Source of the DNA: a candidate division FCPU426 bacterium
GTDB lineage: Bacteria; Oederibacteriota; Muellerivitia; Muellerivitales; Muellerivitaceae
Length of the DNA stretch: 64,000 nt
Reading direction: 5' to 3'
Assembly (NCBI GenBank): GCA_027452205.1
Contig: DAIDGV010000003.1
Coordinates: 201,399 to 265,398, forward strand
The notes beneath the pieces are model-generated. The model was not told the origin of the DNA, did no database searches, and saw nothing but the letters and a program-made list of their open reading frames with translations. Shown piece by piece: positions 10,601-62,417 of the stretch. The position numbers and the translations under genes are program-made. Within the stretch, counting starts at the first letter, position 1; every line of letters begins with the position of its first letter.

Positions 10601-13600
10601 AATGTGGGTATTCCATAATTCAAGTTTGGATGGGCCTGATTCAGCGGCGAGTCGGAATCGAGGACCGTGACACCGTTCGACGGATCGTTATTGGAGTTTT
10701 CGTTCATGACCCCAAAATCGAACATGATCCATTTATCTTTCCCGTCGTTATAGATCCAAGTTTGGAAATACTGGACCGTAGAAAAGTCTTCCCCTGCCGA
10801 CGAGAGGACTTGCCTCAAACCCGCCCAAGTCGCGTTGGTCAAATGGGCGTAAGGCACCTGCAGAACATTAACCACGTCGCTGGCTTGGTTGGTCTGGGCG
10901 TAAACGTGGCCACCACCACCTGGAATTGCGGTGGACGTATTGATGCCAAAGTCCACTTGGGTCGAGGACACGTCGTCATAAAAACGGACACGATTATTAC
11001 CGCTATCCGCGCCGGCATCATAGGTTCCAGCCTGACTGTTCAAATAGGTCGGCGCGTAGGCAGGCGCAGAAGAGACCAACCAACTACTCGTGTTCAAGGA
11101 AGCCGTAATAGCGCTATCGATCCCTTCCATGTTGTCGACTAAAGCTACCCCTGTCTCGCCTTCGGCATTATAGGTGTCCGGGTTGAAATAACTCTGCGCG
11201 ATTTCACCGGATAGTTTTAGGCTCGCAGGTGGTTTCCATTTTTCAAGTCCTGGGATGATACCCGTGATTGATTTAAGGTCTTCCGAGTCCATCTCATATT
11301 TGGTATCCGCATCGAACAAGGTCAAAGAATTCGGGGTCGACCCCAACTGGGGTGTGTCGTTGGGTTGTTGGGAAGTGTCGAGCAAAAAGGTCGACCCAAT
11401 GAAGAACTTATCGGTAACGTCATACTCCATCCGACCACCGAGGATGTTTTGCGCACCAAAGGAACCAAACGGCGAATATTCATAAGAAACAACGATCTGG
11501 CTGTTAGGCGTCAAGATGCTCTTGTCCTGGAAATCCAGGAAGCCCGATGTGTAATCGATGAAATAATCCGTATCTCTCCGTAAGAGACGCCCATCCAAAT
11601 AAACCGTTTCACTGCCTCTCAAAATATTGATGTTGTCGAGTTTAAAGGTTGTCAGCTGCGTTTTATATCTCAGATGGATCGTATACAGACTGTTCGGAGT
11701 GTTCTGCTGGATGTTGTAAACATCTAAGTTCCCCATCACACCGCCCGCTGCCAAAGGGCTGGCAACTCCATCCTGATTCGGAAAAGGTCGTTCCGGAAAG
11801 TAAAGCGGTGAACTATTGGCAAAATTAACATTTGTTACGCTGATGACATTCAGGTCCAAATTCAAATTATAGACATAAGGATTTGCCGCGGTACCACCCT
11901 GGTTCGTTTGGATGATATTGTTTGTGCCTGTTGAAATGATCTGGAATAGAAAGCCCGGATCCTGCTGGGGCGGTATAAGCTTATCGGTCCCTAACGAGAA
12001 ATAATTCACCAAATACATCGGGCTGAGGACTTTCGAGCTGGTGGTCGAAGTACCCGGGGACCCAACATAATCCTTAATGAGGATGTAGTAAGTGGATCCA
12101 TTATTGCCAGAATCGATAATACCGTTATCGGGAACGTTTAGGATGTCCGTAGAATACTGGCCCAATATCGGTGTCAAGTCCGTGGAAGTGGTACCAAAAA
12201 CGTTCAAACCACGCTTGATTCCACTTTGGTCCGTATACCCGACCGCGACCTGGCTGCTGAGGGATAGGGTACGCAAGAAAGTGATGATCCCGGTCGTGTA
12301 ATCGATGGTGTAATCCCGGCCCGGTAACCAGTGTTCCCACTGGCCGACGAAATTAGGCGTTCCGATCGGGGCATATTGATTGTTGACCGGATTTACCCAG
12401 ATCTGTTCACTGCCGCTCTGGGGCAGATAAGTAGCGGTGGCCTGCGGCCTGGAAATATAGAAATATTTCCAGGGGATATAGGAAATATCCGAATAAGTCT
12501 TGTCGATCTGGGTGGTGTTTCCCGTGAAGACTTTCGTCACCGCGATACCCTTTGTTTGGGCGAAAAAAGATGTAAACCGGAAATTGTCGAATTTGAGCAC
12601 TGCTTGCAGTCCGAATAGCTGCTTACTGAACCCGGCAAACTCGGTGTTGGGCAAGGTCAGCTGCAGGTCACCGAAAGAGACGGTCTGAACCACACTATCT
12701 GGATCCCCATGATAGACGATGGAAATATCTTGTTTGGTCTCGTCCACACCACCGGCGCGATTGACATCGCTATAGTCCACGTTCACATCGACATTACTAC
12801 CGACCTTACCTTTCAAGTTCACGACCAACTCCTGATTAATGGTCGTCGTATTTACCTGATTAGAAACACCGTCCACGTTTGGGCGGTTGAAAGTCTGGAA
12901 AGCGAATGCGGCATCAACTTTTTTATAACCCTGGATCGACAATTGACTGTCAGCGGGCAACTTCAGGTTGATGATATTCTGCTCGGGAACAGCCAGTATC
13001 TTTTCCTGCTCCGGCGCCGTTTGTTTGGCCACTCGGATAGCGGCCAACTGTTCTGTCGATTGAGCGATCTCCATGCCGTTTGGTGTCACCGCCAGTTCAT
13101 CCGAATAAGGGCTCATATTGCCCTGTCCATCCACAGCGGCGACGACATAAAAATAATCCTCGCCATTCTGGGGCAGCAATAAGCTGTTGGAGGCTCCATC
13201 CAAAAAATAGGCCGCGTTCAAGGGCCTGGAATTGACCTGCTTATAACCCATTCCCGGCGTAGTAGAACGATAGACGTTGTAATAGGCGGTACTCGAGCCT
13301 GCGGGCGAGGTATCCCAAGAAAGATAGACCCCTTCCTTAAGGACGATCACCGATACTCCTGTAGGCATGGGCGGCGGGTGGTATATGTAGGTTTTGGAAT
13401 GCGTTGGCACCCCATTCGTGACACCATTCTCAGCATCGATGGATTTAAGCACTCTTGCCTCCTCTTCAGGGCTCAAAGAGAAGTCGCCGGAAACACCTTG
13501 GGAATCCACAGTGGGCACCGGTGAAGCGTTATGCACCGGTCCGTTTCCTGCGGTGGGGATCGGACCCAGCCCATTGGATGCCGGAATAGCCGCCACTGCC

Positions 13601-13746
13601 GTCGCCACGATGGAAGCCTCAGTGGAATGACCCGCCGTGGGCACCACCGTCTGTGCCCATCCCTGATCGATCAGGAGAAAGACGAAAATCCCCAGCCAAA
13701 AAGGGGGTCGCTTAGGCATTTTGATATTCAATATGCAACCGACCAT
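7684..13746 (-). CDS. 2020-aa giant secreted beta-rich outer-membrane protein; SprA-like T9SS translocon candidate (hypothesis)
   Basis: Signal peptide (MPKRPPFWLGIFVFLLIDQGWAQ; alternative start at the second Met). An FN3-like module near the N-terminus, then ~1800 aa of N/T/S/Y/D/G-rich sequence with alternating-hydrophobic beta-strand patterns. C-terminal residue is Phe (LWQISLSGEAKF). SprA is the only family of this size and type known to me. Confidence 0.5.
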   Translation of the reverse strand: MVGCILNIKMPKRPPFWLGIFVFLLIDQGWAQTVVPTAGHSTEASIVATAVAAIPASNGLGPIPTAGNGPVHNASPVPTVDSQGVSGDFSLSPEEEARVLKSIDAENGVTNGVPTHSKTYIYHPPPMPTGVSVIVLKEGVYLSWDTSPAGSSTAYYNVYRSTTPGMGYKQVNSRPLNAAYFLDGASNSLLLPQNGEDYFYVVAAVDGQGNMSPYSDELAVTPNGMEIAQSTEQLAAIRVAKQTAPEQEKILAVPEQNIINLKLPADSQLSIQGYKKVDAAFAFQTFNRPNVDGVSNQVNTTTINQELVVNLKGKVGSNVDVNVDYSDVNRAGGVDETKQDISIVYHGDPDSVVQTVSFGDLQLTLPNTEFAGFSKQLFGLQAVLKFDNFRFTSFFAQTKGIAVTKVFTGNTTQIDKTYSDISYIPWKYFYISRPQATATYLPQSGSEQIWVNPVNNQYAPIGTPNFVGQWEHWLPGRDYTIDYTTGIITFLRTLSLSSQVAVGYTDQSGIKRGLNVFGTTSTDLTPILGQYSTDILNVPDNGIIDSGNNGSTYYILIKDYVGSPGTSTTSSKVLSPMYLVNYFSLGTDKLIPPQQDPGFLFQIISTGTNNIIQTNQGGTAANPYVYNLNLDLNVISVTNVNFANSSPLYFPERPFPNQDGVASPLAAGGVMGNLDVYNIQQNTPNSLYTIHLRYKTQLTTFKLDNINILRGSETVYLDGRLLRRDTDYFIDYTSGFLDFQDKSILTPNSQIVVSYEYSPFGSFGAQNILGGRMEYDVTDKFFIGSTFLLDTSQQPNDTPQLGSTPNSLTLFDADTKYEMDSEDLKSITGIIPGLEKWKPPASLKLSGEIAQSYFNPDTYNAEGETGVALVDNMEGIDSAITASLNTSSWLVSSAPAYAPTYLNSQAGTYDAGADSGNNRVRFYDDVSSTQVDFGINTSTAIPGGGGHVYAQTNQASDVVNVLQVPYAHLTNATWAGLRQVLSSAGEDFSTVQYFQTWIYNDGKDKWIMFDFGVMNENSNNDPSNGVTVLDSDSPLNQAHPNLNYGIPTFYTAFDNNPFAYNVQHAGFNYLPDNHGDLGFIGLQAGYNNYNVVNNSSPGQPETSQEGQYNGSFVTQNMDGTGVLNTQDNYFEYGIRANWSGWQLIKIPVNLVSPDYQSSTSNGISYFFHSQGTPNAIVVKSLRMWITGTSGTPIDGNFLIDTINFTHNLWQLAVDPGANADMGVTINPSKFNVNSISQAENSTYNPNMRFIIIQPGQDQNAIQFNEKSLDITYNLSSADYDPAGNINGKPIYYTTRIFQQGLDFTDYQNLAMDMNIRSYNQGDIFFIRIGNDQLDYYQYNISMESLANNLGLDNWGAVNVAIDGSGGNRTTVGTPYINKASQISFGFISPNPPGGRTGEVWIDNLRTNTANVRTGTARRLNAEMVLGDDPKKPFAVIDGRYREVDSGFTEIDQTSTHFQHSLQYGLDYSSSGIYLFGQPLRAQFSFTDQELYTETALLNNPYYLDLPNSQIDTTTGSILYTKDLGPEFGRLTSINLSGSTSSEVDVYQSAYLDQPGVQGNTEKYEQRVSLISTYDMPTKLWFFPIGTNQLTENYTLTHDQQDFTFNFLSPYDRTTYQQNYGWTNTTEVVKNLVFTPGFSVALTDAVGNTNSPGVPGSVATPVPFVQQFQPKGGLVYRGVPGVIPSITYSGSDTYDAVDYQDGLRFSNSNNVNYSLNVTPGSWLPFFQQINLTLFGGRTDSSTVSIPGYQAGELNFGQQWWLIDPTDPNIDKIALLATRSTTDQLNASFKLFDVWDFRPTGSWTDQYSLLYTGAPPTQQVSDTLGITTIYNKRIFTLPWLSFSVNSAQIEYTHTDSTQYDSSVVSQVDSYSESDIFGVTFPYEISKTSQGNIRFQESLGEQNGLATTNVPTYTHDYQLSAEYDQKFAPNLMLHIPFTHWKIQLHDAIEFKANFLSDYTENDSLYTYNQIKTQRYRGTLEFDYNALKNLRIGLTGINEYYTDYLTSTLGYVLWQISLSGEAKF

Positions 13747-26541: not shown

Positions 26542-29280
26542 TTAATCTCCTTCCAAAACGGGTAAGGACACGATGAATTCAGTCCCTTTCGAACGCATCT
26601 TTTTCAATTCGATCTTTCCCCCATATTCCTGAGCGATACGCTGACTGACGGCCAAACCCAGGCCAGACCCTGTTTTTTTTGTGGTAAAGAAAGGCTCAAA
26701 AATCCTTTTCACATTCTCATCCGTTATCCCAGGACCATTATCCTCGACGCTAACTTTTATAAAGGTCCCTTCCCGTTTCAACGCCAACTTTATCTTGTTT
26801 CCCTCGCCCAACGCCTGATAAGCGTTCAGGATCAAATTTACGAATATTTGTTGCAAACGTCCCAATTCTGCGTTTACCTGAAAATCTTCCTTCGGGGCAT
26901 TCCAATCGACCAGGATCTTCTGATGGGAAGGCCCAAACTGAACTTGGCTCAAGCGTAGCGCACTTTCTAGTGCGGCTCTCACCGAGACCGGCCCCACGTT
27001 CAGGACGGCATCCGGCTTAGCGAAGATCAAAGTATCCCGGACCAGTTTTTCAAGCCGGTCCGATTGTTCCAAGATCGTCTCCAATTGCCCATGATCTTCT
27101 TTAGGTTTTTTTCGTTTGAGTATCTGAGCCGCCACCGAGATGGCCGCCAATGGATTGCGTATCTCGTGGGCCATGCCCGCAGACATTTCTCCAATGGTCG
27201 AGAGCCTTTCCATTCGGATCAGGCTTTCTTCGGTCTTTTTCCGCTCCGTCAGGTCGCGGGCAACAACAGCCACCATTGGTAAGCCTTCGTAATGGATAAA
27301 AAAACTGACCACTTCAGCATAGACCTGTTCTCCATCTCTGCGGATAAAGACCTTTTCTTGAGGTGGATTATAATCGCCATGGTCCTTCAATTTACCGATC
27401 CTTTCGAGGATTACCGGCAGGTCCTTTTCACGAATGAACTCATTCGGTTTGAGACCCATTAGTTCTTCTGCTTTGGAATAACCCAAAAAACGAAGCATCG
27501 AATCATTGACATAGACCATTTTAGACGGCCTATCCATCGTGTGAATGATCACGCCATCGGGTGATTTTTCGATCAAATTCCGGAAATTCCTCTCGGACTG
27601 CCTCAGCGCTTCTTCGGCTTTTTTTCGCTCCGTCAGGTCGCGAGCGACCGCCACAGTCACAGGAACTCCCTCGAAGTAGATCATGAAACTAGCCACGTCA
27701 ACATACAATATGGCGCCATCTTTTCGAATAAACCGTTTTTCCTGCGGGGGATTGTAGTCGCCTGGATTTTTTAATTGTTTGATCCGCTCATGAACCGTTG
27801 CTTTATCTTCAGGATGGACAAAAAGAGTCGGAAACCTTCCAACCAACTCCCCGGGTTCGGAATAACCAAGCAAGTTGAGCATCGCATGATTAACATAGAC
27901 TGTCTTTTCAGGGGTATGAATCAAAATCGCATCCGGGGATCTTTCGATCAAATTGCGAAAACTGTGTTCGGACTTCCGCAGGGCTTCTTCGATCTTTTTT
28001 CGCGCGGTCAAATCCCAGAAATTGGTGATCCTAAGGATCTTTCCATTCATAATCAATTCAGCCCCGGTCGCTTCGATCGGAACAATCGAGCCGTTAGGGC
28101 GGATCACATTCAACTCGATCGCCTTCCCAAATTCACCCGTTCGAAGAAGGTCCAAAACGATGTTTTTAGAGTTTTCATCCAAATAATCCGCCGCGTTTTT
28201 TCCAACCATATCTTCCGGTTTATATCCCATCAATTCGGCGCCAGCTTTGTTCACATCAACGATGACACCATTATCATGAATAACGATACCTTCTTTCGAG
28301 ACCTCAGAAAACCGTTTGAACCGTTCTTGGCTTTCAATGATGGCTTGCTCCATTTTTTTCCGCTCTGTAATATCCCAGAGACTCACCACTCGAAGCTCTC
28401 TTCCCGAAAAGTTAAAATTGGTCCCATGTGCCTCTACCGGCAACCAATCGCCATTCTTCCGTTTCACTTTGATTTCGTAAGGCTTATCGGTATATCCTTC
28501 AAGCCTGAACTTTCGAACCAATTCCAGGGACTGGGCGTCAATGAATTCGTCCGATTTTTTTCCGATAAGATCCGACCTAGAATATCCGGTCATATCCGAA
28601 AGCGCTTGATTGAAATCGATGATCGCTCCCTTGTCGTGGATCAAGATGCCTTCCCTCGTGACCTCCGCGAATCTTTCGAATCTTTCCCGGCTTTCTTTTA
28701 AAGCCTTTTCTATTTTCTTTCGTTCGGTCAAGTCCCATATCTTGACCAACCGCATGGTCTTGCCGTGCCACAAAGTATCCATCCCGTGGGTTTCAGCCGA
28801 AACCAAAGTTCCATTAGCATGCTTTAACGTGATCTCAAAGGTCTGCATCGGTATCTCGCCCGATCGGATCTTTTTGATGAACTCCGCTGACTTGTCATCC
28901 ACAAAGAAAAGACTGTCTCTCCCGACGAAGTCCCTTGTTTCAAGCCCCACCATTTCCGCAAGCGCTTGGTTCACCTCCACGATCACGCCCCTATCATGGA
29001 TCAAAAGACCTTCGCGAGTGGCGTCCGCGAATTTTTTGTACCGTTCCTGACTTTCCAGCAATTGCGCTTCTCGTCTATAAAGATGTTGCATCTTGACTCT
29101 ATAATAAATGCCGAAAACCCACCCCTCTATCGCGACCAGTGTTTCCAAAAGGTATAAATAGAGATCACGGCTGGTATGAATGTAGGAACCTAAAAGACAA
29201 ATTAGAAAAACGACACTCAGAATAATATTGAGGATCATTAAAAGATCGCGGCGAGTGATCGGCTGGATGTGTTCTTTCAT
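26542..29280 (-). CDS. membrane-anchored sensor histidine kinase with about six tandem PAS domains + HisKA + HATPase_c
   Basis: 2 N-terminal TM helices. Repeated ~120-aa units ending in TERKK.E.AL. H-box MAHEIRNPLAAI. G-boxes in ...GSGLGLAVSQRIAQEYGGKIEL. Stop is 2 nt before the response-regulator start. Confidence 0.85.
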   Translation of the reverse strand: MKEHIQPITRRDLLMILNIILSVVFLICLLGSYIHTSRDLYLYLLETLVAIEGWVFGIYYRVKMQHLYRREAQLLESQERYKKFADATREGLLIHDRGVIVEVNQALAEMVGLETRDFVGRDSLFFVDDKSAEFIKKIRSGEIPMQTFEITLKHANGTLVSAETHGMDTLWHGKTMRLVKIWDLTERKKIEKALKESRERFERFAEVTREGILIHDKGAIIDFNQALSDMTGYSRSDLIGKKSDEFIDAQSLELVRKFRLEGYTDKPYEIKVKRKNGDWLPVEAHGTNFNFSGRELRVVSLWDITERKKMEQAIIESQERFKRFSEVSKEGIVIHDNGVIVDVNKAGAELMGYKPEDMVGKNAADYLDENSKNIVLDLLRTGEFGKAIELNVIRPNGSIVPIEATGAELIMNGKILRITNFWDLTARKKIEEALRKSEHSFRNLIERSPDAILIHTPEKTVYVNHAMLNLLGYSEPGELVGRFPTLFVHPEDKATVHERIKQLKNPGDYNPPQEKRFIRKDGAILYVDVASFMIYFEGVPVTVAVARDLTERKKAEEALRQSERNFRNLIEKSPDGVIIHTMDRPSKMVYVNDSMLRFLGYSKAEELMGLKPNEFIREKDLPVILERIGKLKDHGDYNPPQEKVFIRRDGEQVYAEVVSFFIHYEGLPMVAVVARDLTERKKTEESLIRMERLSTIGEMSAGMAHEIRNPLAAISVAAQILKRKKPKEDHGQLETILEQSDRLEKLVRDTLIFAKPDAVLNVGPVSVRAALESALRLSQVQFGPSHQKILVDWNAPKEDFQVNAELGRLQQIFVNLILNAYQALGEGNKIKLALKREGTFIKVSVEDNGPGITDENVKRIFEPFFTTKKTGSGLGLAVSQRIAQEYGGKIELKKMRSKGTEFIVSLPVLEGD

Positions 29281-30819: not shown

Positions 30820-31164
30820 TGGTGGAGGCGGTGGGAATCGAACCCACGTCCTGAAAATCATCCGTAATGGGCACTACGTGCGTAGCTCAAGAAAGAGTCT
30901 CACCCCCCGCTCGCTCTCGAGCGGCCGGCGGAGAGCCAGTCCCATTGTTTCTCGCCCGGCCATCGGTGGAACAACCCTGATCCGGACCAACCTATTGCTT
31001 ACGTTCCATCCCCCTAATAGGTATCAGAGGCGAAACGCTTACCGCATTAAGCGGCGAGAGCTAACTGGTTATCGGCAGTTATACCGTTTGCCATGTTTGA
31101 CGAGCGATGGCGTCCTCGACACGCACCCAAAAGTTCAGCTTCCCAGTCGAAACCGGTCGCCCCC
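30820..31164 (-). ncRNA. ssrA: tmRNA (ssrA), ~345 nt
   Basis: Minus strand reads 5'-GGGGGCGACCGGTTTCGACTGGG...GGTTCGATTCCCACCGCCTCCACCA-3'. 7-bp acceptor stem with G3:U. tRNA-Ala-like T-arm and encoded CCA. Internal ORF GCA AAC GGT ATA ACT GCC GAT AAC CAG TTA GCT CTC GCC GCT TAA gives tag ANGITADNQLALAA (resume codon inferred). Confidence 0.88.
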
Positions 31165-50954: not shown

Positions 50955-51775
50955 GAACGCCCCTTGGTGCTCTTTTTCTTCAGCAAGACCACATCGCCCG
51001 AAAGCACTTTTCGGGAAAGCCCGTCCTTGTCCGTTACCAACAAAAAACCATGCTCATCGATATCCTTCACTTGTCCCTCAAAGGACCCAGCCCCGTTCTC
51101 GACCAGAACCTTCTGGCCCAAGGTTACGGATCTTTTTCGCCATTCTTTCAGGACCCGGGCGAACTTACCCTCATCCCACCAAGTGCAGGTCTTTTCCAAG
51201 TTTTTCATCAGTTCTCGAAGGAACTCCACCCGGTCCACCTTTTTTCCCGAGGCCCGGTAAAAACTGGTCGCCAAAGCCCGTATCTCCGTCGGAAAGTCTT
51301 GGATGGATTGGTTCAGGTTGATGCCGATCCCTAGGATGACCGAAGACCTATTATCCCGCCGGGGACCCATTTCCGTCAAAATACCGCACAGCTTTTTGCC
51401 CTGGAGCTGGATGTCATTCGGCCATTTGATACCAGGCTGGAGCCCATAGCTTTCCAGGGTCAGGGCCACCCCCACCGCCGCCGCTAAAGTGATACCCGGT
51501 ATCTTGTCAGGCCTCGCTTTAGGATAAAGGATCAAGGAAAAGGCCAGAGCCTTTCCGGGAGAGGTGGTCCATCGCCGCCCCTGTCGGCCACGGCCCTTGG
51601 TTTGGGATTCGGCCAGGACCAGGGTTCCTGACGGCGTTCCCTTTCGGATCAGGTCCCCGGCTATATCGTTCGTCGAGGTCACTTCAGAAAAGGAATAGAA
51701 AGCCCGGCCAAAGCGGTGGCTGCGCAACCCCTTGGCGAAAAGCTCGACCGAAATGGGTGCGGTGCTTACTTTCAA
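50951..51775 (-). CDS. birA: biotin--[acetyl-CoA-carboxylase] ligase
   Basis: BPL catalytic core (QTKGRGRQGRRW, KWPNDI) plus C-terminal SH3-like domain. No N-terminal HTH. Confidence 0.85.
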   Translation of the reverse strand: MKVSTAPISVELFAKGLRSHRFGRAFYSFSEVTSTNDIAGDLIRKGTPSGTLVLAESQTKGRGRQGRRWTTSPGKALAFSLILYPKARPDKIPGITLAAAVGVALTLESYGLQPGIKWPNDIQLQGKKLCGILTEMGPRRDNRSSVILGIGINLNQSIQDFPTEIRALATSFYRASGKKVDRVEFLRELMKNLEKTCTWWDEGKFARVLKEWRKRSVTLGQKVLVENGAGSFEGQVKDIDEHGFLLVTDKDGLSRKVLSGDVVLLKKKSTKGRS

Positions 51776-52614
51776 AGCGGATAGAACTCGATGGAAAAAT
51801 CGATCGAAGGGGCTGAGTGGGTCAAGGCGCCGGAGGAAAAACGGTCCACTTTGAGCGAGGAATATTTGCCGATGTTGGAAAGGGTCAATCCACCCGAAGT
51901 TTCAACCTGCATCTTGCCTTTAACAAGTTTGAGGATACGAGCGAAATCCTTGGGTGAAGCATTATCGACCAAGATGATGTCCGCTCCCGCTCTCAAGGCC
52001 TCGACCGCCTGGTCATAGGTTTCCACCTCGACCTCGATGAATTCTTGGGTGCCATATTTCAGCCGGGCCGCCGAAACCGTCCCGAACACCCCGCCGCCCA
52101 GGCGCAAATGATTGTCCTTAATGAGCACATGACCGGACAAGTTGTAACGGTGATTGGTTCCCCCGCCAACGCGGACCGCGTAACGTTCGAGGGGCCGCAA
52201 AAGCGGGGTGGTCTTGCGGGTATCGTAAAGTTTGCCCTTGGGAAGGACTTTGGCGAATTGGTTCGTTAAAGTGGCAACGCCTGATAAACGACTGAGCAGG
52301 TTGAGCGAAACCCGTTCACCGGATAAAAGGGCTTGAGCAGGCCCTTCGAGCAGAGCCACTTTCATTCCCTTGCGGACCTTGGCCCCTTCTTTTTGTAACA
52401 GCTTTACTTTTACACGCTTGTCCAAAAGCCCATAGATTTCTTTCACCAAAGGCAGACCCGCTAAAACACCTTCGGCCTTGGCCAACACTTCCCCCCGGGC
52501 CCGTGCAGAGGAAGAAATGACCGCTTTCGATGTGCGATCATTCCAAACCCCATCCTCTTTCAGGGCTTCACGCAGGAAAGAGCGAGTCAACTTCCAATCA
52601 AAGTTTTCTTTCAA
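51772..52614 (-). CDS. nadC: nicotinate-nucleotide diphosphorylase (quinolinate phosphoribosyltransferase)
   Basis: 280 aa with QAPRT motifs (ALKEDGVWNDRT N-terminus, GGGTNHRYNLSGHVLIKDNH). TTG start per ORF track. Confidence 0.9.
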   Translation of the reverse strand: MKENFDWKLTRSFLREALKEDGVWNDRTSKAVISSSARARGEVLAKAEGVLAGLPLVKEIYGLLDKRVKVKLLQKEGAKVRKGMKVALLEGPAQALLSGERVSLNLLSRLSGVATLTNQFAKVLPKGKLYDTRKTTPLLRPLERYAVRVGGGTNHRYNLSGHVLIKDNHLRLGGGVFGTVSAARLKYGTQEFIEVEVETYDQAVEALRAGADIILVDNASPKDFARILKLVKGKMQVETSGGLTLSNIGKYSSLKVDRFSSGALTHSAPSIDFSIEFYPL

Positions 52615-52651
52615 TTAACGACCTCAAATCATCAGGATTCAGTCCACTAAC

Positions 52652-53500
52652 CTAACCCACCATATATCTTTCCACTTTACTCGGTGCGGCGTTCATCAGG
52701 TAAACGGTGTCGTTTTGGCAGCCGATATATACAGAAGTTCCATCGTCACTGAGGGCTGGTTTGCCGATGGTCGGGCTATAAACACGGCTGGTCCAAAGGG
52801 GGGTCACTGAAGAAGTGGTTGGCAAGGCCGGGAAACAATATAAAACGCCGTCATTGGAGCCAACAATGACGGCATCGGTGCTCGTTCCGTTTTGGATCAA
52901 CCCTTCCGTCGGTGAGGACAAAATGGCGTCGCTGGTCTGGTATTGCCAGATCAGGTTTCCGTTGATATCCATCGCACGGAACATACCGTCACTGGACCCA
53001 AAGTAAACCCGGCTATTCGTGCCCTCTCTTAAAACAGCGGGGCTGGAGTAAATTTCACCCTGGGTTTGGTAGCTCCAGCGTTGACTGCCATCAAAGGTAT
53101 TGAGGGCCAAAAGCTTGCCCTGGGTAGTCCCAACGAACAAAACCCCTTGATTTGTGGCACTTTCAGCGCCATTCAAGCCGGTAAAAGGCGCGTCAGGGAC
53201 CGTGTTTGAGCCCAGATCCAGCACCGCCGGAGGGGATGAATAGGTCACATTGGGCTGACCCAAGGGTGACACCCATTTTTGTTGGAAGAAAGGGTTATCG
53301 AGATGTTGGTTAAAGCCGGTGTTATCGGGGTTATAGCGGTATTGCACCCAGGAATTAGGATTCGAGGGCGTGAGCGTGGCCGTGGGCGTGTTTTGAGCAA
53401 AAGCCGGAGCCGTTGCAAAAAAAATAAAAAAACAAACAGTTATAAAAAACCGTTTATTTTCTTCCGCCTTAAAATATTGACGTCTTATATTTTTCAACAA
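52652..53500 (-). CDS. secreted PQQ-like beta-propeller repeat protein
   Basis: Signal peptide. Repeated (V/I)(Y/F).G(S/T).DG.(L/F)(Y/R)A(L/M)D motifs. Confidence 0.6.
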   Translation of the reverse strand: MLKNIRRQYFKAEENKRFFITVCFFIFFATAPAFAQNTPTATLTPSNPNSWVQYRYNPDNTGFNQHLDNPFFQQKWVSPLGQPNVTYSSPPAVLDLGSNTVPDAPFTGLNGAESATNQGVLFVGTTQGKLLALNTFDGSQRWSYQTQGEIYSSPAVLREGTNSRVYFGSSDGMFRAMDINGNLIWQYQTSDAILSSPTEGLIQNGTSTDAVIVGSNDGVLYCFPALPTTSSVTPLWTSRVYSPTIGKPALSDDGTSVYIGCQNDTVYLMNAAPSKVERYMVG

Positions 53501-53547
53501 CTCTATCCATTCAGATATCAGGTCAATTATTCAGAAACCTAATACCG

Positions 53548-53787
53548 TCAAAAATTCTTAATCATTAAATAAACACCCAAAACCGTAATCACCGTTCCCA
53601 AAATATAATTTCTGACACGCATCAAATTTTCAGATGTATTCATATTCCAAAAATCATTGATTTCACAAAACATTTTCGAAATCCTTCTATTGAAAATTAG
53701 AAAAAAAAACCCTGCTAAAAAAAACGCAAAGGATTCAAAAAAATAAATTTTTCCCAAAAACCAATTACCCATTTTCAACATCTCCAT
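53548..53787 (-). CDS. AT-rich small two-TM membrane protein; candidate immunity protein for the adjacent RHS C-terminal toxin
   Basis: 79 aa with 2 hydrophobic helices. About 30% GC. Sits 11 nt after the RHS gene stop. Confidence 0.4.
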   Translation of the reverse strand: MEMLKMGNWFLGKIYFFESFAFFLAGFFFLIFNRRISKMFCEINDFWNMNTSENLMRVRNYILGTVITVLGVYLMIKNF

Positions 53788-53798
53788 AAAAATTATAG

Positions 53799-55202
53799 CT
53801 ATCTGTTATCCGTTCCATCCCATTCCGTGTTTTGGTTATAGGGCGCATTTGGCGGTATCACAAACCGGGTTGGCTGATACTGGATAGAAGGATAAACTGT
53901 AACAACTCCCCCACTCAGTCCAAGCGTACCAGCGCCAAATTCGGTTGAACTAGGCGGTTGAAAAACAGGCGTGCCCTGATTAAAGGTTATTTGTCCACCT
54001 GTAGATGCTGCCCCACCAGCTGCTAAACCCGCAGTCCAATAATCGCCAGGAGTTGGCACACTATTCATAGAACCCGTTAGGGAGATTCCAGGCCCAAAAG
54101 CACCTGCCCCCAAATACGGTATTATCAAACCAGTGTCAGATTGAATTATTATCCCGGCTGTCACTCCAATATAATCGTTGCCAAAACTGACATTCAGATT
54201 GTTATAACCTGGTGGCACCGTAGATCCCGGCGCATTGGAAGTTGCCGCAACTGGATAACTAAGATTATTACCAGATCCATCGTTAGTAGTTGGCGTTGGT
54301 GTAGCTGTAGATGTTTGCATACCTGTTGACGTTGCGGTTGGCGGACACAATCCCAAGAAATCTATGCCGTTAATTGGATTATTGAAAACATATCCATAAA
54401 GATTCAAACCGCCTCTAATGTCCACTGAATCTTGCGTCATAAATCTGCCAGCGTTTGGGTCATACCAACGGTTGCGCATGTAAGTTAAACCAACCGAAGC
54501 CTCGTTTTCCGAACCCATTTTCCCAATAAACTGATAGTGATTGTCCCTGGTGTTTCCTCCGCTCAAGGTCGTACCAAAAGCGTCATAACGATAGCTGTCT
54601 GAAATATTCCCGCCCGCGTCCGTGACATTCGCCACGGAAGCCAACCCATCAAAGTGGAAATAACTCACCCGAGGGATGTAGTTGGTTTTGGGGGTAAATA
54701 TCTGGGACAAATTAACGGTATGAACCACGTTATTGGCCGTTTGGCCTTCGTTGCCGTCTTGATCCACCACGCTTCCCTTGCTCCACAAGTATTGATGGGT
54801 GTCTGGTTCGCCCTTGGGACCGGCTTGGGTATTACTGATCTTCATACCCGTATAGTCATAGCCATAAATAAAGTGTTGGCCGTTATACAAAGTAGCTGTC
54901 GTTAAACGGTTTTCCGTGTCATAGGTATAGGTCGTGGTTTGGCTGGTCGAAGTATCGGTCTTGGTCAGCGGGTTTCCATTGCCGTCGTAGGTGTAGCTCA
55001 CCGTACCGGCCGTCAACAACTTGTTCGCCGCGTCATAGCCATAAGTGGTCGTGATGGCCCCCACCGTCATACTGGACCGGTTACCCGCGTTGTCATAGTT
55101 ATAGCTGACCGCCTTCAAAGTGCGGTCATTCCATGCTCCGTCCTCTTTCAAGGCTTCGTATAAAAAAGGATGAGTGGACTTCCACATGATTTTTTTGGTC
55201 AT
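53799..55202 (-). CDS. RHS/YD-repeat C-terminal fragment with RHS core (DPxGL) and variable Gly/Thr/Ser-rich C-terminal domain; N-terminal 32 aa derived from nadC
   Basis: YD repeats (YTYDGNGNPLT, YTYDTENRLT, YGYDYTGM). Core NRWYDPNAGRFMTQDSV...NPINGIDFLGL. C-terminal 182 aa are low-complexity and glycine-zipper-like. First 32 aa (MTKKIMWKSTHPFLYEALKEDGAWNDRTLKAV) parallel the NadC N-terminus. Confidence 0.75.
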   Translation of the reverse strand: MTKKIMWKSTHPFLYEALKEDGAWNDRTLKAVSYNYDNAGNRSSMTVGAITTTYGYDAANKLLTAGTVSYTYDGNGNPLTKTDTSTSQTTTYTYDTENRLTTATLYNGQHFIYGYDYTGMKISNTQAGPKGEPDTHQYLWSKGSVVDQDGNEGQTANNVVHTVNLSQIFTPKTNYIPRVSYFHFDGLASVANVTDAGGNISDSYRYDAFGTTLSGGNTRDNHYQFIGKMGSENEASVGLTYMRNRWYDPNAGRFMTQDSVDIRGGLNLYGYVFNNPINGIDFLGLCPPTATSTGMQTSTATPTPTTNDGSGNNLSYPVAATSNAPGSTVPPGYNNLNVSFGNDYIGVTAGIIIQSDTGLIIPYLGAGAFGPGISLTGSMNSVPTPGDYWTAGLAAGGAASTGGQITFNQGTPVFQPPSSTEFGAGTLGLSGGVVTVYPSIQYQPTRFVIPPNAPYNQNTEWDGTDNR

Positions 55203-55203
55203 A

Positions 55204-57867
55204 TCAGTTCTCGAGAAACTTCAAGTTGTGGTCGATCCGGACGATCTTGTCCTTGGTTTCTCGCAACTTTGTCTTTTCACCATCGATCAGTTCCGCTGGC
55301 GCATTCTTGACGAATTGCTCATTGGCCAACTTGCCTTGGATGGATTGGACATATTTTTCGAGCTTTTGCTTTTCCTTGATCTGTTTGGCGGCCTCGGCCT
55401 TGATATCGATGAGCCCTTCCAGATGGATATAGACCTCACCGCCCTTCACCACCGCCAAAGAAGTTTTGGGAGGGCGTGAAGAAGCCAACGAGATGTCGTT
55501 TACACGACAAAGGGTCTTCAAAATGGCCGACACTTGGGAGGCTGGATCGAACTTCACACTATCCCCATGGGTGGAAAGCTTCAGTTGGGCCGAAGGCGGT
55601 ACATTCAGCTCGCTGCGGCTGGTGCGAATAGCCGTCACCACTTCTTGCAAGAACTCGAATTCAGCCACGGCTTTTTCATCCATCGGATAATCCGATGATT
55701 TGGGCCAAGAGGCCTTCATGATGGTTTCGGGATGGCCAGGCAGCTTTTGCCAAAGTTCTTCGGTCACAAAAGGCATCACCGGGTGCAGCAAGCGTAATAC
55801 GCCGTCAAACACCGTCAAAATGACCGATGCGGCCAGTTTCTTTTCTTCAGAATTGGCTTCGGCATAAAGCCGAGGCTTGACCGATTCCAGATACCAGTCG
55901 CAAACCTCGTTCCAAAGGAAGCGATAGAGGGTCGCGGACAGTTCAGCCACTCGGTATTTTTCGTAATCCGGCGTCACCGAGGCGATGGTCTGGCTCAAAC
56001 GGGTCAATATCCATTTGTCTTCCAGCCTCAGCTTGTTCCAATCCGCTTTTTGCAGTGGCTTCACTTCGGTCCCATCCTCGAGTCCCATCAGTACGAACCG
56101 GGTGGCGTTATAAAGCTTATTCACGAAATTCCGGGACGATTCCAACTTTTGAGGGGTCAAGGCCACATAGCGCTGCTTGGTCTCGATGCTGGTCAAGGTA
56201 AAGCGCAGGGCGTCGGTACCGTACTTGTCGATCATGTCCAAGGGGTCCACCACATTGCCCTTGGATTTGGACATTTTCTTGCCCTCTTCATCGGCCACCA
56301 GCGAATAGATATAGACCTCTTTGAAAGGCACCTTGCCCATGAACTTGATGCCCATCATCATCATGCGGGCGACCCAGAAGAAGAGAATGTCCCAACTGGT
56401 CACGAGGACCGATGTCGGATAGAAAATTTCCAAGTCCTTCGTTTTTTCAGGCCAACCCAGGGTGGAAAAGGGCCAAAGGCCGGAGGAGAACCAGGTATCC
56501 AACACATCCGGATCCTGCTCAAAGCGGGTCTGTTGGCACTTAGGACACTCTTTGGGAACGCTCGTCGCAGCTACTTGGGTCGAGCAGTTGGCGCAGGTGT
56601 AGACCGGAATGCGGTGACCCCACCAAATTTGTCGGCTAATGCACCAGTCCTGGATGTTGTTGAGCCACTTCTCATACTCACCGCGCCACATCTCGGGCAC
56701 GAACTTGGTTTCACCCTTATCCACCGCCTCCAATGCCTTTTCGGCCAGGGGTTTCATCTTCACGAACCATTGTTTGGAATAAAAAGGTTCCACCACCGTA
56801 TCGCAACGATAGCAATGTCCCACGTTGTTCTCATGGGGCTCGATCTTGATGAGAAATTCCTTCTCTTCCAGGTCCGCCACGATCTTCTTACGGGCCACGA
56901 AACGGTCCATGCCCTGATAAGCGCCCGCGTTCTCATTGAGCGTGCCATCCGGGTTGAGGATATTGATGCGTTCCAGGTTATGCCGCACACCCACCTGAAA
57001 GTCGTTGAAATCATGGGCTGGAGTGATCTTCACCACACCTGTTCCGAATTCCTTATCGACATAATCGTCCGCGATGACCGGAATGGCCTGGTTGACCAGG
57101 GGCAAGGTCACTTTCTTGCCCACCAAGGACTTATAACGCTCGTCCATCGGGTTCACCGCCACCGCCGTATCACCCAAGAGGGTTTCCGGACGGGTGGTCG
57201 CCACTTCGAGAAACTTCGTCGGGTCATCCACATAAGGATAACGGATGTGATAGAAGTTACCGTTCTTCGGTTTATGGGTCACCTCGATGTCCGACAAGGC
57301 CGTGCGGCAATGCGTACACCAGTTGATCAGCTTGTAATCCTGATAGATGAACTTTTCATTGAAGAGTGTGATGAAAACTTCTTGAACGGCCTTAGAGAGA
57401 CCCTCGTCCATGGTGAAACGTTCCCGGGACCAATCGCAGGAACAGCCCATAGTGCGGATCTGCTTCATAATGCGGGCCCCGTACTTCTCTTTCCACTCCC
57501 ACACTTTTTGGATAAAAGCTTCCCGGCCCAAGTCATAACGGGTTTTGCCTTCCGTCTTCGCCAGTTCCCTTTCCACCACGTTCTGGGTGGCGATACCCGC
57601 GTGGTCGCAACCCGGCAACCAAAGCACATTGAAACCGTTCATGCGTTTGAAACGGGCCAAAGCGTCCTGCAGGGTGTCGTTCAATGCATGGCCCATATGT
57701 AGGCTACCCGTCACGTTCGGCGGCGGGATGACCATACAAAAAGCGGGCTTATCGGTGGTCTGGGAGGCCTTGAAAATGCCGGACTTTTCCCAAACGTCGT
57801 ACCAACGGGCCTCGACCTCTTTGGGTTCATAGACCGGGGGTAAGGAAAATTCGTTCGTCTTGTCCAT
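55204..57867 (-). CDS. valS: valine--tRNA ligase
   Basis: HMGH and KMSKS class-I motifs, editing domain, C-terminal coiled coil, 887 aa. Confidence 0.95.
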   Translation of the reverse strand: MDKTNEFSLPPVYEPKEVEARWYDVWEKSGIFKASQTTDKPAFCMVIPPPNVTGSLHMGHALNDTLQDALARFKRMNGFNVLWLPGCDHAGIATQNVVERELAKTEGKTRYDLGREAFIQKVWEWKEKYGARIMKQIRTMGCSCDWSRERFTMDEGLSKAVQEVFITLFNEKFIYQDYKLINWCTHCRTALSDIEVTHKPKNGNFYHIRYPYVDDPTKFLEVATTRPETLLGDTAVAVNPMDERYKSLVGKKVTLPLVNQAIPVIADDYVDKEFGTGVVKITPAHDFNDFQVGVRHNLERINILNPDGTLNENAGAYQGMDRFVARKKIVADLEEKEFLIKIEPHENNVGHCYRCDTVVEPFYSKQWFVKMKPLAEKALEAVDKGETKFVPEMWRGEYEKWLNNIQDWCISRQIWWGHRIPVYTCANCSTQVAATSVPKECPKCQQTRFEQDPDVLDTWFSSGLWPFSTLGWPEKTKDLEIFYPTSVLVTSWDILFFWVARMMMMGIKFMGKVPFKEVYIYSLVADEEGKKMSKSKGNVVDPLDMIDKYGTDALRFTLTSIETKQRYVALTPQKLESSRNFVNKLYNATRFVLMGLEDGTEVKPLQKADWNKLRLEDKWILTRLSQTIASVTPDYEKYRVAELSATLYRFLWNEVCDWYLESVKPRLYAEANSEEKKLAASVILTVFDGVLRLLHPVMPFVTEELWQKLPGHPETIMKASWPKSSDYPMDEKAVAEFEFLQEVVTAIRTSRSELNVPPSAQLKLSTHGDSVKFDPASQVSAILKTLCRVNDISLASSRPPKTSLAVVKGGEVYIHLEGLIDIKAEAAKQIKEKQKLEKYVQSIQGKLANEQFVKNAPAELIDGEKTKLRETKDKIVRIDHNLKFLEN

Positions 57868-61265: not shown

Positions 61266-62417
61266 ATGAAGCGTTGGCCTTTCCTGTTGCTGGCCCTGGC
61301 CGTTATCGGCTGCGGCCCGGCCGGCCCTGAGCCGAACAACAACCTGGCCCCCACCCCGCCTATGGGCTGGAACTCCTGGAATAAATTCGCCTGCAACATC
61401 AACGAAAAGCTTATCCGTGAGATCGCGGACGCCATGGTCACCACCGGCATGAAGGATGCCGGTTACCAGTACGTCATCATCGACGATTGTTGGCAGCTTC
61501 CCCGCCGAGAGAACGGCCATCTGATGGCCGATCCCGATAGCTTCCCCGGCGGCATCAAAGCCCTGGCCGATTATGTCCACGCCAAAGGGCTGAAATTAGG
61601 CCTATATAGTGACCGGGGCCTTCGGACCTGCCAGAACAAGGCTGGTTCCCACGACCACGAAACGACCGACGCCCAGGACTTTGCCGCCTGGGGCGTAGAT
61701 TACGTGAAATATGACAATTGCAATCCGGCTTTTCTGTCGAACCAAGAAGCTGATTTCCGCCGGATGCGGGAATGCTTGAACAACTGCGGCCGTCCCATCG
61801 TTTTCAGTATTTGTTGTTGGGGTTTTGGAGATTGGATGCCTGCCGTAGGAGACCTATGGCGCACGACCGGGGATATCACGGATAAATGGGGACGCATGGT
61901 GGAGCTGATCGACACCAACGAGCAATACGCCAACCTCAGCGCCCCTTCCCACTGGAACGATCCGGACATGCTGGAGATCGGCAATGGCGGCATGACCGAT
62001 GTGGAATACCGTTCCCAATTCAGTCTGTGGGCCATCATGGCGGCACCCCTGATCGCGGGCAACGACCTGCGTCAAATGAGCAAAGCCACCCTGGAAACCC
62101 TGACCAACAAAGAGGTCATCGCGGTCGACCAGGACCCGCTGGGGGCCCAAGGCACCATGGTCGAATCCAGCGACAAAGACTTGCTTGTTTATGCGAAGAA
62201 TTTGAAAGATGCCGGACAAAAAGCAGTGGTTTTGTTTAACAGAACGGACAGCGGAAGCCCCATGACCGTTCATTGGGGCAAGATCGGCCTAGCCCCTGGC
62301 ACAGCCCAAGTGCGGGACCTTTGGGCCCATAAGGAATTAGGAAAGTTCAAAGATAGTTACAAGGTCTATGTACCCAGCCACGCGACGGTCCTTGTAAAGG
62401 TTACCACGCTCAACTAG
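61266..62417 (+). CDS. alpha-galactosidase (GH27), lipoprotein
   Basis: Lipobox LALAVIGC. GH27 motifs PPMGWNSWN, YQYVIIDDCW, LKYDNC. C-terminal beta-sandwich. Confidence 0.85.
   Translation: MKRWPFLLLALAVIGCGPAGPEPNNNLAPTPPMGWNSWNKFACNINEKLIREIADAMVTTGMKDAGYQYVIIDDCWQLPRRENGHLMADPDSFPGGIKALADYVHAKGLKLGLYSDRGLRTCQNKAGSHDHETTDAQDFAAWGVDYVKYDNCNPAFLSNQEADFRRMRECLNNCGRPIVFSICCWGFGDWMPAVGDLWRTTGDITDKWGRMVELIDTNEQYANLSAPSHWNDPDMLEIGNGGMTDVEYRSQFSLWAIMAAPLIAGNDLRQMSKATLETLTNKEVIAVDQDPLGAQGTMVESSDKDLLVYAKNLKDAGQKAVVLFNRTDSGSPMTVHWGKIGLAPGTAQVRDLWAHKELGKFKDSYKVYVPSHATVLVKVTTLN

What the first reader, a model, noticed from the sequence alone, without database searches (positions are those of the whole stretch)
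52519..55240. RHS C-terminal toxin fragment carrying a duplicated, diverged nadC 5' end: a ~2.6-kb insertion between valS and nadC
The first 32 codons of the RHS-fragment gene (MTKKIMWKSTHPFLYEALKEDGAWNDRTLKAV) and ~40 nt upstream of it parallel nadC's start (MKENFDWKLTRSFLREALKEDGVWNDRTSKAV) and its upstream region, which lie 2.6 kb away in the same orientation. DNA alignment of 55107-55240 with 52519-52650 is roughly 70% identical. For example, gtgcggtcattccatgctccgtcctctttcaaggcttcg aligns with gtgcgatcattccaaaccccatcctctttcagggcttca.

After codon 32 the new gene continues straight into terminal YD repeats, the RHS core (DPxGL: ...IDFLGL) and a 182-aa variable C-terminal domain. No N-terminal RHS body or delivery domain is present.

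So an rhs C-terminal tip cassette, with its small AT-rich membrane protein and possibly the PQQ propeller gene, appears to have recombined into the 5' end of nadC. It captured nadC's translation start while regenerating an intact nadC downstream.

Chimeric orphan rhs-CT modules grafted onto a housekeeping gene start are unusual. This one shows how toxin tips can be mobilised and expressed without a full Rhs carrier.
Basis: seen in the sequence. Interest (0 to 1): 0.7.

Follow-up and report, generated by a model that had tools for sequence, protein, structure and literature searches.

The report
Orphan Rhs cassette inserted into nadC
A 2.5-kb piece of a bacterial toxin locus (the tail of an Rhs toxin gene, a small membrane-protein gene that probably gives immunity, and the head of the next gene) sits inside the start of the housekeeping gene nadC; 96 bases were duplicated, so nadC stayed whole and the toxin fragment took over nadC's old start codon, which is a clear but fairly ordinary example of how such toxin/immunity modules spread.

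Summary
A 96-nt direct repeat, nadC codons 1-32, flanks a ~2.49-kb insert (55107-55202 and 52519-52614; 66/96 identical; local alignment score 60 against 17±2 for shuffles). Close relatives (nadC 94%, 84%, 77% and 75% identical) have the empty site: valS stop, one base, nadC ATG. That is exactly where the chimeric gene now starts.

The left junction lies in a GCGGTC(A) microhomology shared by nadC and rhs relatives. The claimed ~40 nt of upstream similarity is not significant.

The insert is an internal chunk of an rhs polymorphic-toxin locus. A full-length relative (L048) has a 3819-aa Rhs, a small membrane protein, and a multi-propeller gene of at least 3074 aa. The window keeps only:
- the last ~253 aa of the Rhs shell and core
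- a unique 182-aa C-terminal domain
- a 79-aa two-helix membrane protein
- the first ~280 codons of the propeller gene

So the "PQQ gene" is a gene fragment. Similar doubly truncated cassettes, each with a different toxin tip and small membrane protein, occur at three or more other genomic sites in related uncultured bacteria.

Best reading: a microhomology-mediated ectopic insertion with target duplication, giving an orphan toxin/immunity module. Expression and function are untested.

The parts
55204..57867 (-). valS, the left flank. Its TGA stop is followed by one base and then the ATG of the chimeric gene.
   Evidence: Pfam tRNA-synt_1, Anticodon_1 and Val_tRNA-synt_C. 90% nt identity to L009 valS. 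The same stop/1-nt/start arrangement with nadC occurs in L009, L010 and L012-15.
55107..55202 (-). Repeat copy A: the original in-situ nadC codons 1-32 (MTKKIMWKSTHPFLYEALKEDGAWNDRTLKAV), now the N-terminus of the chimeric ORF.
   Evidence: It occupies exactly the position of nadC's start in empty-site relatives. 77/96 nt identical to L009 nadC, with 12 private changes spread over all codon positions.
55106..55112 (-). Left junction: GCGGTCA, shared by nadC (AAG GCG GTC ATT) and by the insert.
   Evidence: Rhs relatives have GCG GTT / GCG GTG / GCG GTC at the homologous Ala-Val codons. L009 homology ends at 55106 and rhs homology starts at 55103.
54348..55106 (-). Rhs arm: the last ~253 aa of an Rhs shell plus the Rhs-associated core, ending at IDFLGL.
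   Evidence: RHS_repeat and TIGR03696 core. 68% aa identity to residues ~3388-3654 of the 3819-aa Rhs of L048. 71% to L001 and 65% to L003-type fragments.
53802..54347 (-). Variable C-terminal domain (182 aa, rich in Gly, Thr and Pro); presumed toxin of unknown activity.
   Evidence: No Pfam or NCBIfam hit. One weak relative among 1.84 billion representatives (P0241, E 8.6e-5), and that gene also lies directly after an Rhs core end and before a membrane protein. Not homologous to the tips of L001, L003, L048 or L049.
53548..53787 (-). Small AT-rich ORF (79 aa) with two hydrophobic helices; candidate immunity protein.
   Evidence: Hydropathy peaks around residues 13-33 and 58-79. It sits directly after the toxin tip, as in every related cassette, and each cassette has a different small membrane protein. 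No family hit.
52652..53500 (-). 5' fragment (282 codons: signal peptide plus a partial beta-propeller) of the gene that follows rhs and immunity in the full locus.
   Evidence: PQQ_2 and Beta-prop_ACSF4 hits. 80% aa identity to the start of an ORF of at least 3074 aa in L048 with PQQ, NHL and SGL propellers. 85% to the 447-aa L001 version, and truncated relative to it at about residue 280.
52615..52651 (-). 37 nt of unassignable sequence between the end of the propeller fragment and nadC's TTG. It contains GAGG 8 nt before the start and a TAA immediately before it.
   Evidence: No significant match to the valS 3' end or to the continuation of the propeller gene in L001. Sequence read.
52519..52614 (-). 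Repeat copy B: codons 1-32 of the working nadC, with the start codon changed from ATG to TTG.
   Evidence: 75/96 nt identical to L009. 14 private changes, 12 of them in the first 52 nt and mostly at third positions.
51772..52614 (-). Intact nadC (280 aa), followed by birA and coaX as in relatives.
   Evidence: QRPTase_N and QRPTase_C. Same length as the L009 nadC and 94% aa identical to it. dN/dS 0.05.

Best explanation
A ~2.49-kb DNA fragment from an rhs polymorphic-toxin locus was integrated ectopically at codon 32/33 of nadC by illegitimate, microhomology-guided recombination. The fragment holds the last 0.76 kb of the rhs shell and core, a toxin tip, its small membrane immunity gene, and the first 0.85 kb of the following giant propeller gene.

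The event duplicated about 96 nt of target, nadC codons 1-32. The upstream copy stayed attached to valS and now supplies the start codon and translation-initiation context of an in-frame nadC'::rhs-CT chimera. The downstream copy rebuilt a full-length nadC, which has since acquired a TTG start behind a GAGG.

A replication template switch out at GCGGTC and back near the nadC start would give this structure in one step. Only products that restored nadC would be kept.

Functionally the result is an orphan toxin/immunity module. The most likely benefit is the immunity gene, which would protect against neighbours that deliver the cognate toxin on a full-length Rhs. The chimeric ORF is probably translated from nadC's former start, but it lacks any delivery domain.

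Shown: the structure, the boundaries, the empty site, the origin of the insert and the polymorphism of the tip/immunity pairs. Inferred: the recombination mechanism, toxin and immunity activity, and expression.
For: - Empty site in four relatives of graded distance: L009 at 94% nadC identity, P0123 at 84%, L010 at 77% and L012-15 at 75%.
- Collinearity of L009 with the window on both sides, with a 91-nt overlap of the two blocks.
- Both repeat copies are closest to the L009-type nadC. They share two derived states, AAG at codon 8 and Thr10, that L009 and the outgroups L010 and L012 lack; Thr10 was also seen in none of the other listed nadC N-termini.
- GCGGT(C) is present at the homologous site of rhs relatives.
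- A full-length locus, L048: 3819-aa Rhs, a 107-aa membrane protein, and a propeller gene of at least 3074 aa. Both ends of the insert align to it.
- The region between the arms (54387-53456) has no homology to L001 or L002. All five tips and all small proteins compared are mutually unrelated.
- Doubly truncated cassettes occur at three or more other genomic sites: ispA...dxs (L001), autotransporter...GH92-rpsB (L003-8, L016, L133), and next to mgtC-dus (L137-9). There are tandem arrays in L049 and L133.
- No integrase or transposase lies nearby, and flanking synteny is intact.
Against: - The donor locus is not in hand. No protein more than 71% identical to the Rhs arm, or more than 83% identical to the propeller arm, exists in the 5.8-billion-protein set, which does include this genome's proteins.
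- The two repeat copies differ by 31%, more than the 11% separating the window from L009. Copy B has 14 private changes against 3 in L009, and 6 of them match outgroup states. A simple in-situ duplication does not predict this unless the new start region was remodelled.
- The right junction cannot be placed to the base.
- No evidence bears on expression, toxicity or immunity. The structure model of the tip was useless, at pLDDT 35.
- Only one contig carries this arrangement.
Confidence: 0.75

Rival explanations
1. Homology-anchored import. The cassette arrived on DNA from a related donor in which the propeller fragment already lay just upstream of nadC. The right end recombined homologously inside nadC's first ~50-96 nt, and the left end joined illegitimately at GCGGTC. 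On this view copy B, or at least its first ~50 nt, is donor sequence and not an in-situ duplicate.
For: Copy B has 14 private substitutions against 3 in L009, although the branch lengths are equal elsewhere (128 against 130). Twelve of the 14 lie in the first 52 nt, and 6 of the 14 equal the outgroup state. dS of copy B against L009 is 1.3, compared with 0.55 for the rest of nadC.
Against: No such donor arrangement was found in the protein, genome or metagenome searches. Copy B is still closer to L009 (75/96) than to L010 or L012 (66-67/96), and it shares two derived states with copy A. The model needs an earlier insertion in the donor as well, so it is less parsimonious. With only 96 nt, the statistics are weak.
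Confidence: 0.15
2. The cassette is ancestral at this site and was precisely lost in relatives by recombination between the two nadC repeats.
For: Direct repeats would allow precise excision. The large divergence between the repeats (31%) could mean that the insertion predates the split from L009.
Against: All sampled relatives at four levels of divergence have the empty site, which would require several independent precise losses. The L009 nadC 5' end is not a simple A/B recombinant: sites matching A and sites matching B are interleaved along the 96 nt.
Confidence: 0.04
3. The 32-residue N-terminus is a conserved tag of this Rhs family that happens to resemble nadC, or the arrangement is an assembly artefact.
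For: None was found. Only one contig carries the structure.
Against: Every close Rhs relative, including the full-length one, has YD-repeat sequence at that position. The peptide is 24/32 identical to the neighbouring lineage's nadC and sits exactly at nadC's ancestral start. An assembly chimera would not produce an in-frame fusion flanked by diverged 96-nt repeats and a restored nadC.
Confidence: 0.02
4. The fragment is a maintained functional unit and not passive debris. Either it is an internally expressed toxin/antitoxin-like addiction module, or it is a stored cassette with two homology arms for swapping toxin tips into a main rhs locus.
For: The 467-codon chimera and the 282-codon propeller fragment are both open. 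If copy A's 12-16 private changes reflect neutral time (at least 0.13 substitutions per site), the chance of no stop codon is about 0.008 for the Rhs part and 0.03 for the propeller part. dN/dS of the arms is 0.07-0.22; my three-way split of the distances gives the window branch dN of about 0.09 and no excess over L001 or L048. The orphan fragments in L001 and L003 also begin with their own ATG. Orphan Rhs tips can act as type II TA modules in Salmonella (PMC7043789).
Against: The age estimate rests on 96 nt. No main rhs with arms similar enough for homologous recombination is seen in this genome's proteins. The L016 copy is broken by a frameshift, so decay does occur. The shell fragment (about 7% of the full Rhs) may not fold or self-cleave.
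Confidence: 0.15

Closest known systems
Orphan rhs-CT/rhsI modules of Enterobacteriaceae (Poole et al. 2011, PMC3150448; Koskiniemi et al. 2014, PMC3967940)
   Same: A 5'-truncated rhs fragment keeps part of the conserved core, carries a variable C-terminal tip and is followed by a small cognate ORF. Tips and small ORFs are polymorphic between strains.
   Different: [quoted passage not shown] This one lies in a housekeeping operon with no rhs gene in the 64-kb window. It is fused in frame to nadC's start, and it also carries the 5' end of the gene that follows the locus.
Internally expressed Rhs tips acting as type II toxin-antitoxin modules (Starsta et al. 2020, PMC7043789)
   Same: The toxin tip and immunity gene could be made inside the cell without the delivery part of Rhs.
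   Different: In Salmonella, expression comes from internal promoters and start sites within rhs. Here it would come from a captured housekeeping start. Activity was not tested here.
Effector/immunity arrays built by sequential displacement (Vibrio cholerae T6SS, PMC5361080)
   Same: The related loci L049 and L133 show tandem remnants (immunity, propeller fragment, Rhs fragment, immunity, propeller), as expected when incoming modules recombine through conserved flanks.
   Different: Those arrays form at the home locus by homologous recombination. The window's copy is at an unrelated site and shows a microhomology junction and a target duplication.
Illegitimate or homology-facilitated illegitimate recombination, and microhomology-mediated template switching (de Vries and Wackernagel 2002; Hastings et al. 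2009; cited from my own knowledge and not read here)
   Same: There is a short microhomology at the junction, no recombinase gene, and a duplication of target sequence flanking foreign DNA.
   Different: The mechanism is inferred from the scar only. The donor and the right junction are not resolved.

Membership tests
Rhs / YD-repeat polymorphic toxin (full-length) | Rhs-associated core domain ending in a DPxGL-type motif, followed by a variable C-terminal domain | tested here: met
   TIGR03696 at residues 206-285, 68.3 bits against a cut-off of 32.5. The core ends at IDFLGL and the 182-aa tail is unique.
Rhs / YD-repeat polymorphic toxin (full-length) | Long YD-repeat shell plus an N-terminal secretion or delivery region | tested here: not met
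   Only about 253 aa of repeats and core are present. The full-length relative is 3819 aa, with a signal peptide and DUF6531. The N-terminus here is nadC-derived.
Orphan rhs-CT / immunity module | 5'-truncated rhs fragment with a toxin tip, followed by a small ORF that differs between cassettes | tested here: met
   The fragment aligns to L048 residues ~3388-3654. The 79-aa two-helix ORF follows it. Tips and small ORFs are unrelated across five cassettes.
Orphan rhs-CT / immunity module | Located immediately downstream of a main rhs gene | tested here: not met
   The only Rhs-like sequence in the 64-kb window is this fragment. It lies between valS and nadC. No protein more than 71% identical to the arm exists in the database that holds this genome's proteins.
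Orphan rhs-CT / immunity module | Lacks its own translation initiation signals (usual, not obligatory) | tested here: not met
   The fragment is fused in frame to nadC's ATG at the ancestral valS-coupled start.
Orphan rhs-CT / immunity module | The tip is toxic and the small protein neutralises it | not testable with these tools
   No family hits. The structure model had pLDDT 35. The only support is context: the one remote homologue, P0241, is also placed directly after an Rhs core.
Site-specific integrative element that regenerates its target gene | Integrase or recombinase gene and att repeats of near identity | tested here: not met
   The insert holds only three ORFs and none is a recombinase. 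The repeats are 69% identical. Flanking synteny with L009 and L012 is otherwise unbroken.
nadC (quinolinate phosphoribosyltransferase), for the downstream gene | Full-length QRPTase_N plus QRPTase_C under purifying selection | tested here: met
   Both Pfam domains are present. The protein is 280 aa, the same length as relatives. dN/dS is 0.05 against L009.

The most novel reading that the evidence does not exclude
In this uncultured lineage, rhs cassettes truncated at both ends (Rhs arm, toxin tip, immunity gene, propeller arm) are not debris. They are maintained, translated units dispersed around the chromosome. Each acquired a start codon, here by capturing that of nadC. They persist because they act as addiction or immunity modules, or as a store of toxin tips that can be swapped into a main rhs locus through their two arms.
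Probability: 0.15. Interest if true: 0.6.

Novelty: new variant of a known kind. Interest (0 to 1): 0.4.

Why it matters
Orphan toxin/immunity modules are thought to arise and stay next to their parent rhs gene and to be silent. This case has an exact empty-site control, and it shows three things. First, the unit exchanged between strains (conserved arm, tip, immunity gene, conserved arm) can also land elsewhere by microhomology. Second, such an insertion into a housekeeping gene that is intact and under purifying selection is tolerated when a target duplication rebuilds that gene. Third, the orphan can inherit a working start codon.

It is a well-resolved natural example of gene fusion plus target duplication, and of immunity-gene spread without mobile-element machinery. 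It does not reveal a new kind of system.

Tried and rejected
- Upstream homology of ~40 nt: tested against the valS 3' ends of the window and of L009, and no better than shuffles.
- Exact look-up of the chimeric protein on other contigs: none found. Its 90% cluster has one member and no name.
- Organism name from nadC relatives: only '[bacterium]'. The only labelled relative of the cassette is a candidate division FCPU426 MAG (L016), so the window's own taxon remains unassigned.
- Pfam and NCBIfam on the toxin tip and the small ORF: no hits.
- AlphaFold2 on the tip alone: pLDDT 35, not usable, so no fold search was run.
- Promoter and terminator scan of 52300-55500: no more sites than in shuffles.
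- Viral contigs: only distant Rhs relatives at 25-30% identity, so there is no sign of a phage vector.
- Flanking direct repeats at the L001 and L003 cassettes: none comparable, so target duplication is not a general signature of these insertions.
- 'Ancestral cassette, precise loss in relatives': rejected on parsimony and on the interleaved A/B pattern in L009.
- A conserved Rhs N-terminal tag: rejected.

Full report
**Anatomy**

All relevant genes lie on the minus strand:
- valS, 55204-57867
- a 467-aa ORF, 53799-55202
- a 79-aa ORF, 53548-53787
- a 282-aa PQQ_2/BamB-like ORF, 52652-53500
- nadC, 51772-52614, with a TTG start
- birA and coaX downstream of nadC

Pfam and NCBIfam confirm valS, nadC, birA and coaX. 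They also place RHS repeats and the Rhs-associated core domain (residues 206-285) in the 467-aa ORF. G+C falls to 28-37% around the small ORF.

**The repeat**

Codons 1-32 of the 467-aa ORF (55107-55202, copy A) and of nadC (52519-52614, copy B) are 66/96 nt identical. The repeat finder gives a 79-nt core at 75% identity, with spacing 2588. A local alignment scores 60, against 17.0±2.1 for 500 shuffles.

The 66 nt upstream of the two starts do not align better than shuffles.

**The empty site**

The nearest nadC homologues were found in the protein search. Their contigs show valS ending one base before the nadC ATG:
- L009 (nadC 94% identical), L010 (77%) and L012-15 (75%)
- the P0123 contig (84%), where gene positions only were available

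The window has the same valS stop, one base and an ATG, but there the ATG opens the chimera.

L009 is collinear with the window from 63261 to 51546. Its two homology blocks end at window 55106 and restart at 52608, and they overlap by 91 nt in L009 coordinates. So copy A is nadC's original 5' end in place, about 2.49 kb has been inserted after codon 32, and copy B is the duplicated target.

**The left junction**

nadC reads AAG GCG GTC ATT and the chimera reads AAG GCG GTC AGC. Rhs relatives have GCG GTT, GCG GTG or GCG GTC at the homologous Ala-Val codons. The join therefore lies in a 6-7-nt microhomology and is in frame.

**The right junction**

Homology to the propeller gene fades at about 52650-52680. 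Thirty-seven unassignable bases follow, and then nadC's TTG, which is preceded by GAGG and by an in-frame TAA.

**What the insert is**

Close relatives of the Rhs part in the protein database are all short (428-654 aa), and none carries the nadC peptide.

The metagenome scan found a full-length locus (L048 and L052):
- a 3819-aa Rhs with a signal peptide, DUF6531 and many RHS repeats
- a 107-aa membrane protein
- an ORF of at least 3074 aa that begins with the PQQ-like propeller and continues with NHL and SGL propellers

The window's Rhs part matches residues ~3388-3654 of that Rhs at 68% aa identity. The window's 'PQQ gene' matches the first ~290 residues of the giant ORF. Relative to the 447-aa L001 version it is cut at about residue 280.

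Between the two conserved arms, the toxin tip and small ORF (54387-53456) have no DNA homology to L001 or L002. The tips and small membrane proteins of five cassettes are mutually unrelated. This is the signature of a polymorphic toxin/immunity locus with conserved recombination arms.

**Related cassettes elsewhere**

Arm-tip-small ORF-arm pieces, truncated at different points, lie at three or more other genomic sites:
- between ispA and dxs (L001 and L002)
- between an autotransporter and GH92-rpsB (L003-8; L016, a candidate division FCPU426 MAG in which the Rhs ORF is split)
- next to mgtC-dus (L137-9)

L049 and L133 show tandem arrays of such pieces. No comparable target duplication flanks the L001 or L003 copies. 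No close relative occurs on viral contigs.

**The toxin tip and the small protein**

The 182-aa tail has one weak relative among 1.84 billion representative proteins (P0241, E 8.6e-5). That gene also lies directly after an Rhs core end and before a membrane protein, which fits a tip family used by polymorphic toxins.

The 79-aa protein has two hydrophobic helices. The small proteins of the other cassettes are also rich in hydrophobic stretches by eye; only the window's was profiled. This hints that the tips act at the membrane, but that is inference. A single-sequence structure model was unusable.

**Timing and selection**

- The window and L009 differ by dS 0.55-0.60, and their branches are equal (128 against 130 private changes).
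- Over the 96 nt, copy A has 12 private changes, copy B has 14 and L009 has 3. A and B share two derived states.
- Copy A's changes are spread over all codon positions, as expected after release from nadC constraint.
- Copy B's changes are mostly at third positions and are concentrated in the first 52 nt. Six of them equal the outgroup state.

Copy B's excess is unexplained. It could reflect re-tuning of a new start (ATG to TTG, loss of coupling to valS), or donor origin of the first ~50 nt.

If copy A's divergence measures neutral time since insertion (at least 0.13 substitutions per site), an unconstrained 435-codon Rhs-tip ORF would stay free of stops with probability of about 0.008. The propeller fragment would do so with probability of about 0.03. 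dN/dS of the arms is 0.07-0.22. My three-way split of those pairwise distances gives the window branch dN of about 0.09, no higher than the L001 or L048 branches.

Either the cassette is under purifying selection or it is younger than the repeats suggest. With 96 nt, I treat this as a lead and not a result.

**Mechanism**

No recombinase gene is present, and synteny on both sides is intact. The scar has three features: a microhomology at one end, a ~96-nt target duplication, and an insert that is an arbitrary internal piece of another locus. It fits illegitimate recombination.

Most simply, a replication template switch left nadC at GCGGTC, copied 2.5 kb of an rhs locus, and returned near nadC's start. 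Selection would then keep only products with a complete nadC. The rival is a homology-anchored import from a donor in which the propeller fragment already abutted nadC. It would explain copy B's oddities but needs an extra, unobserved step.

**Comparison with what is known**

This is an orphan rhs-CT/immunity module in the sense of PMC3150448 and PMC3967940. It departs from the usual pattern in four ways:
- It is not next to a main rhs gene.
- It carries both flanking arms of the locus.
- It is fused in frame to a housekeeping gene's start, whereas orphans 'usually lack translation initiation signals' (PMC3967940).
- It is flanked by a target duplication that rescued the host gene.

Internal expression of orphan tips as toxin-antitoxin-like modules has been shown in Salmonella (PMC7043789). 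It is a possible but untested role here.

**Verdict**

This is a new variant of a known kind. It is well resolved and instructive, but it is not a new system.

Noticed in passing
L003 9465-10001; L016 9457-9850: The gap between the autotransporter gene and the Rhs fragment holds two arrays of short direct repeats: about six TGTTTAACGG units and about six AATGCTACTAG units, mostly 21-22 nt apart. They look like stacked protein-binding sites. Nothing similar lies at the window's junctions.
   Followed up: partly
window 3176-7684 and 7684-13746 (minus strand): Two adjacent giant ORFs (1502 and 2020 aa) have no Pfam hit at E<=1e-4. They lie next to a LytTR response regulator and histidine kinase pair.
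   Followed up: no
window 52519-52614: The 5' end of the working nadC has about four times more private substitutions than the same stretch in L009, clustered in the first 52 nt. The start codon changed from ATG to TTG.
   Followed up: partly
L049 1-4022; L133 1-4263: Tandem arrays at the related locus: immunity, an 80-aa or ~117-aa propeller fragment, an Rhs fragment or another tail, immunity, and a propeller fragment. In L133 the propeller fragment continues into an unrelated tail.
   Followed up: partly
L016 9989-11953: In the candidate division FCPU426 MAG, the orphan Rhs fragment is split into 374-aa and 278-aa ORFs, so some copies of this cassette family are decaying.
   Followed up: no
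L009 879-1790 versus window ~62383-62413: The closest relative carries an extra YHYH-domain gene that is absent from the window at the syntenic position.
   Followed up: no
L010 2221-4855: valS is called as two ORFs (335 and 546 aa) in this relative. This is either a frameshift or an assembly error.
   Followed up: no
window 30820-31164 (minus strand): tmRNA gene with tag peptide ADNQLALAA. It is the only tRNA-like gene in the window.
   Followed up: no
window 27539-27635 and 27914-28010: A 97-nt direct repeat at 74% identity lies within the span of the 912-aa minus-strand ORF (26542-29280), which suggests an internal protein repeat.
   Followed up: no
L001 2271-2833: A DUF4258 gene and a 78-aa ORF (a likely toxin-antitoxin pair) sit immediately upstream of the orphan Rhs fragment in the ispA-dxs locus.
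   Followed up: no
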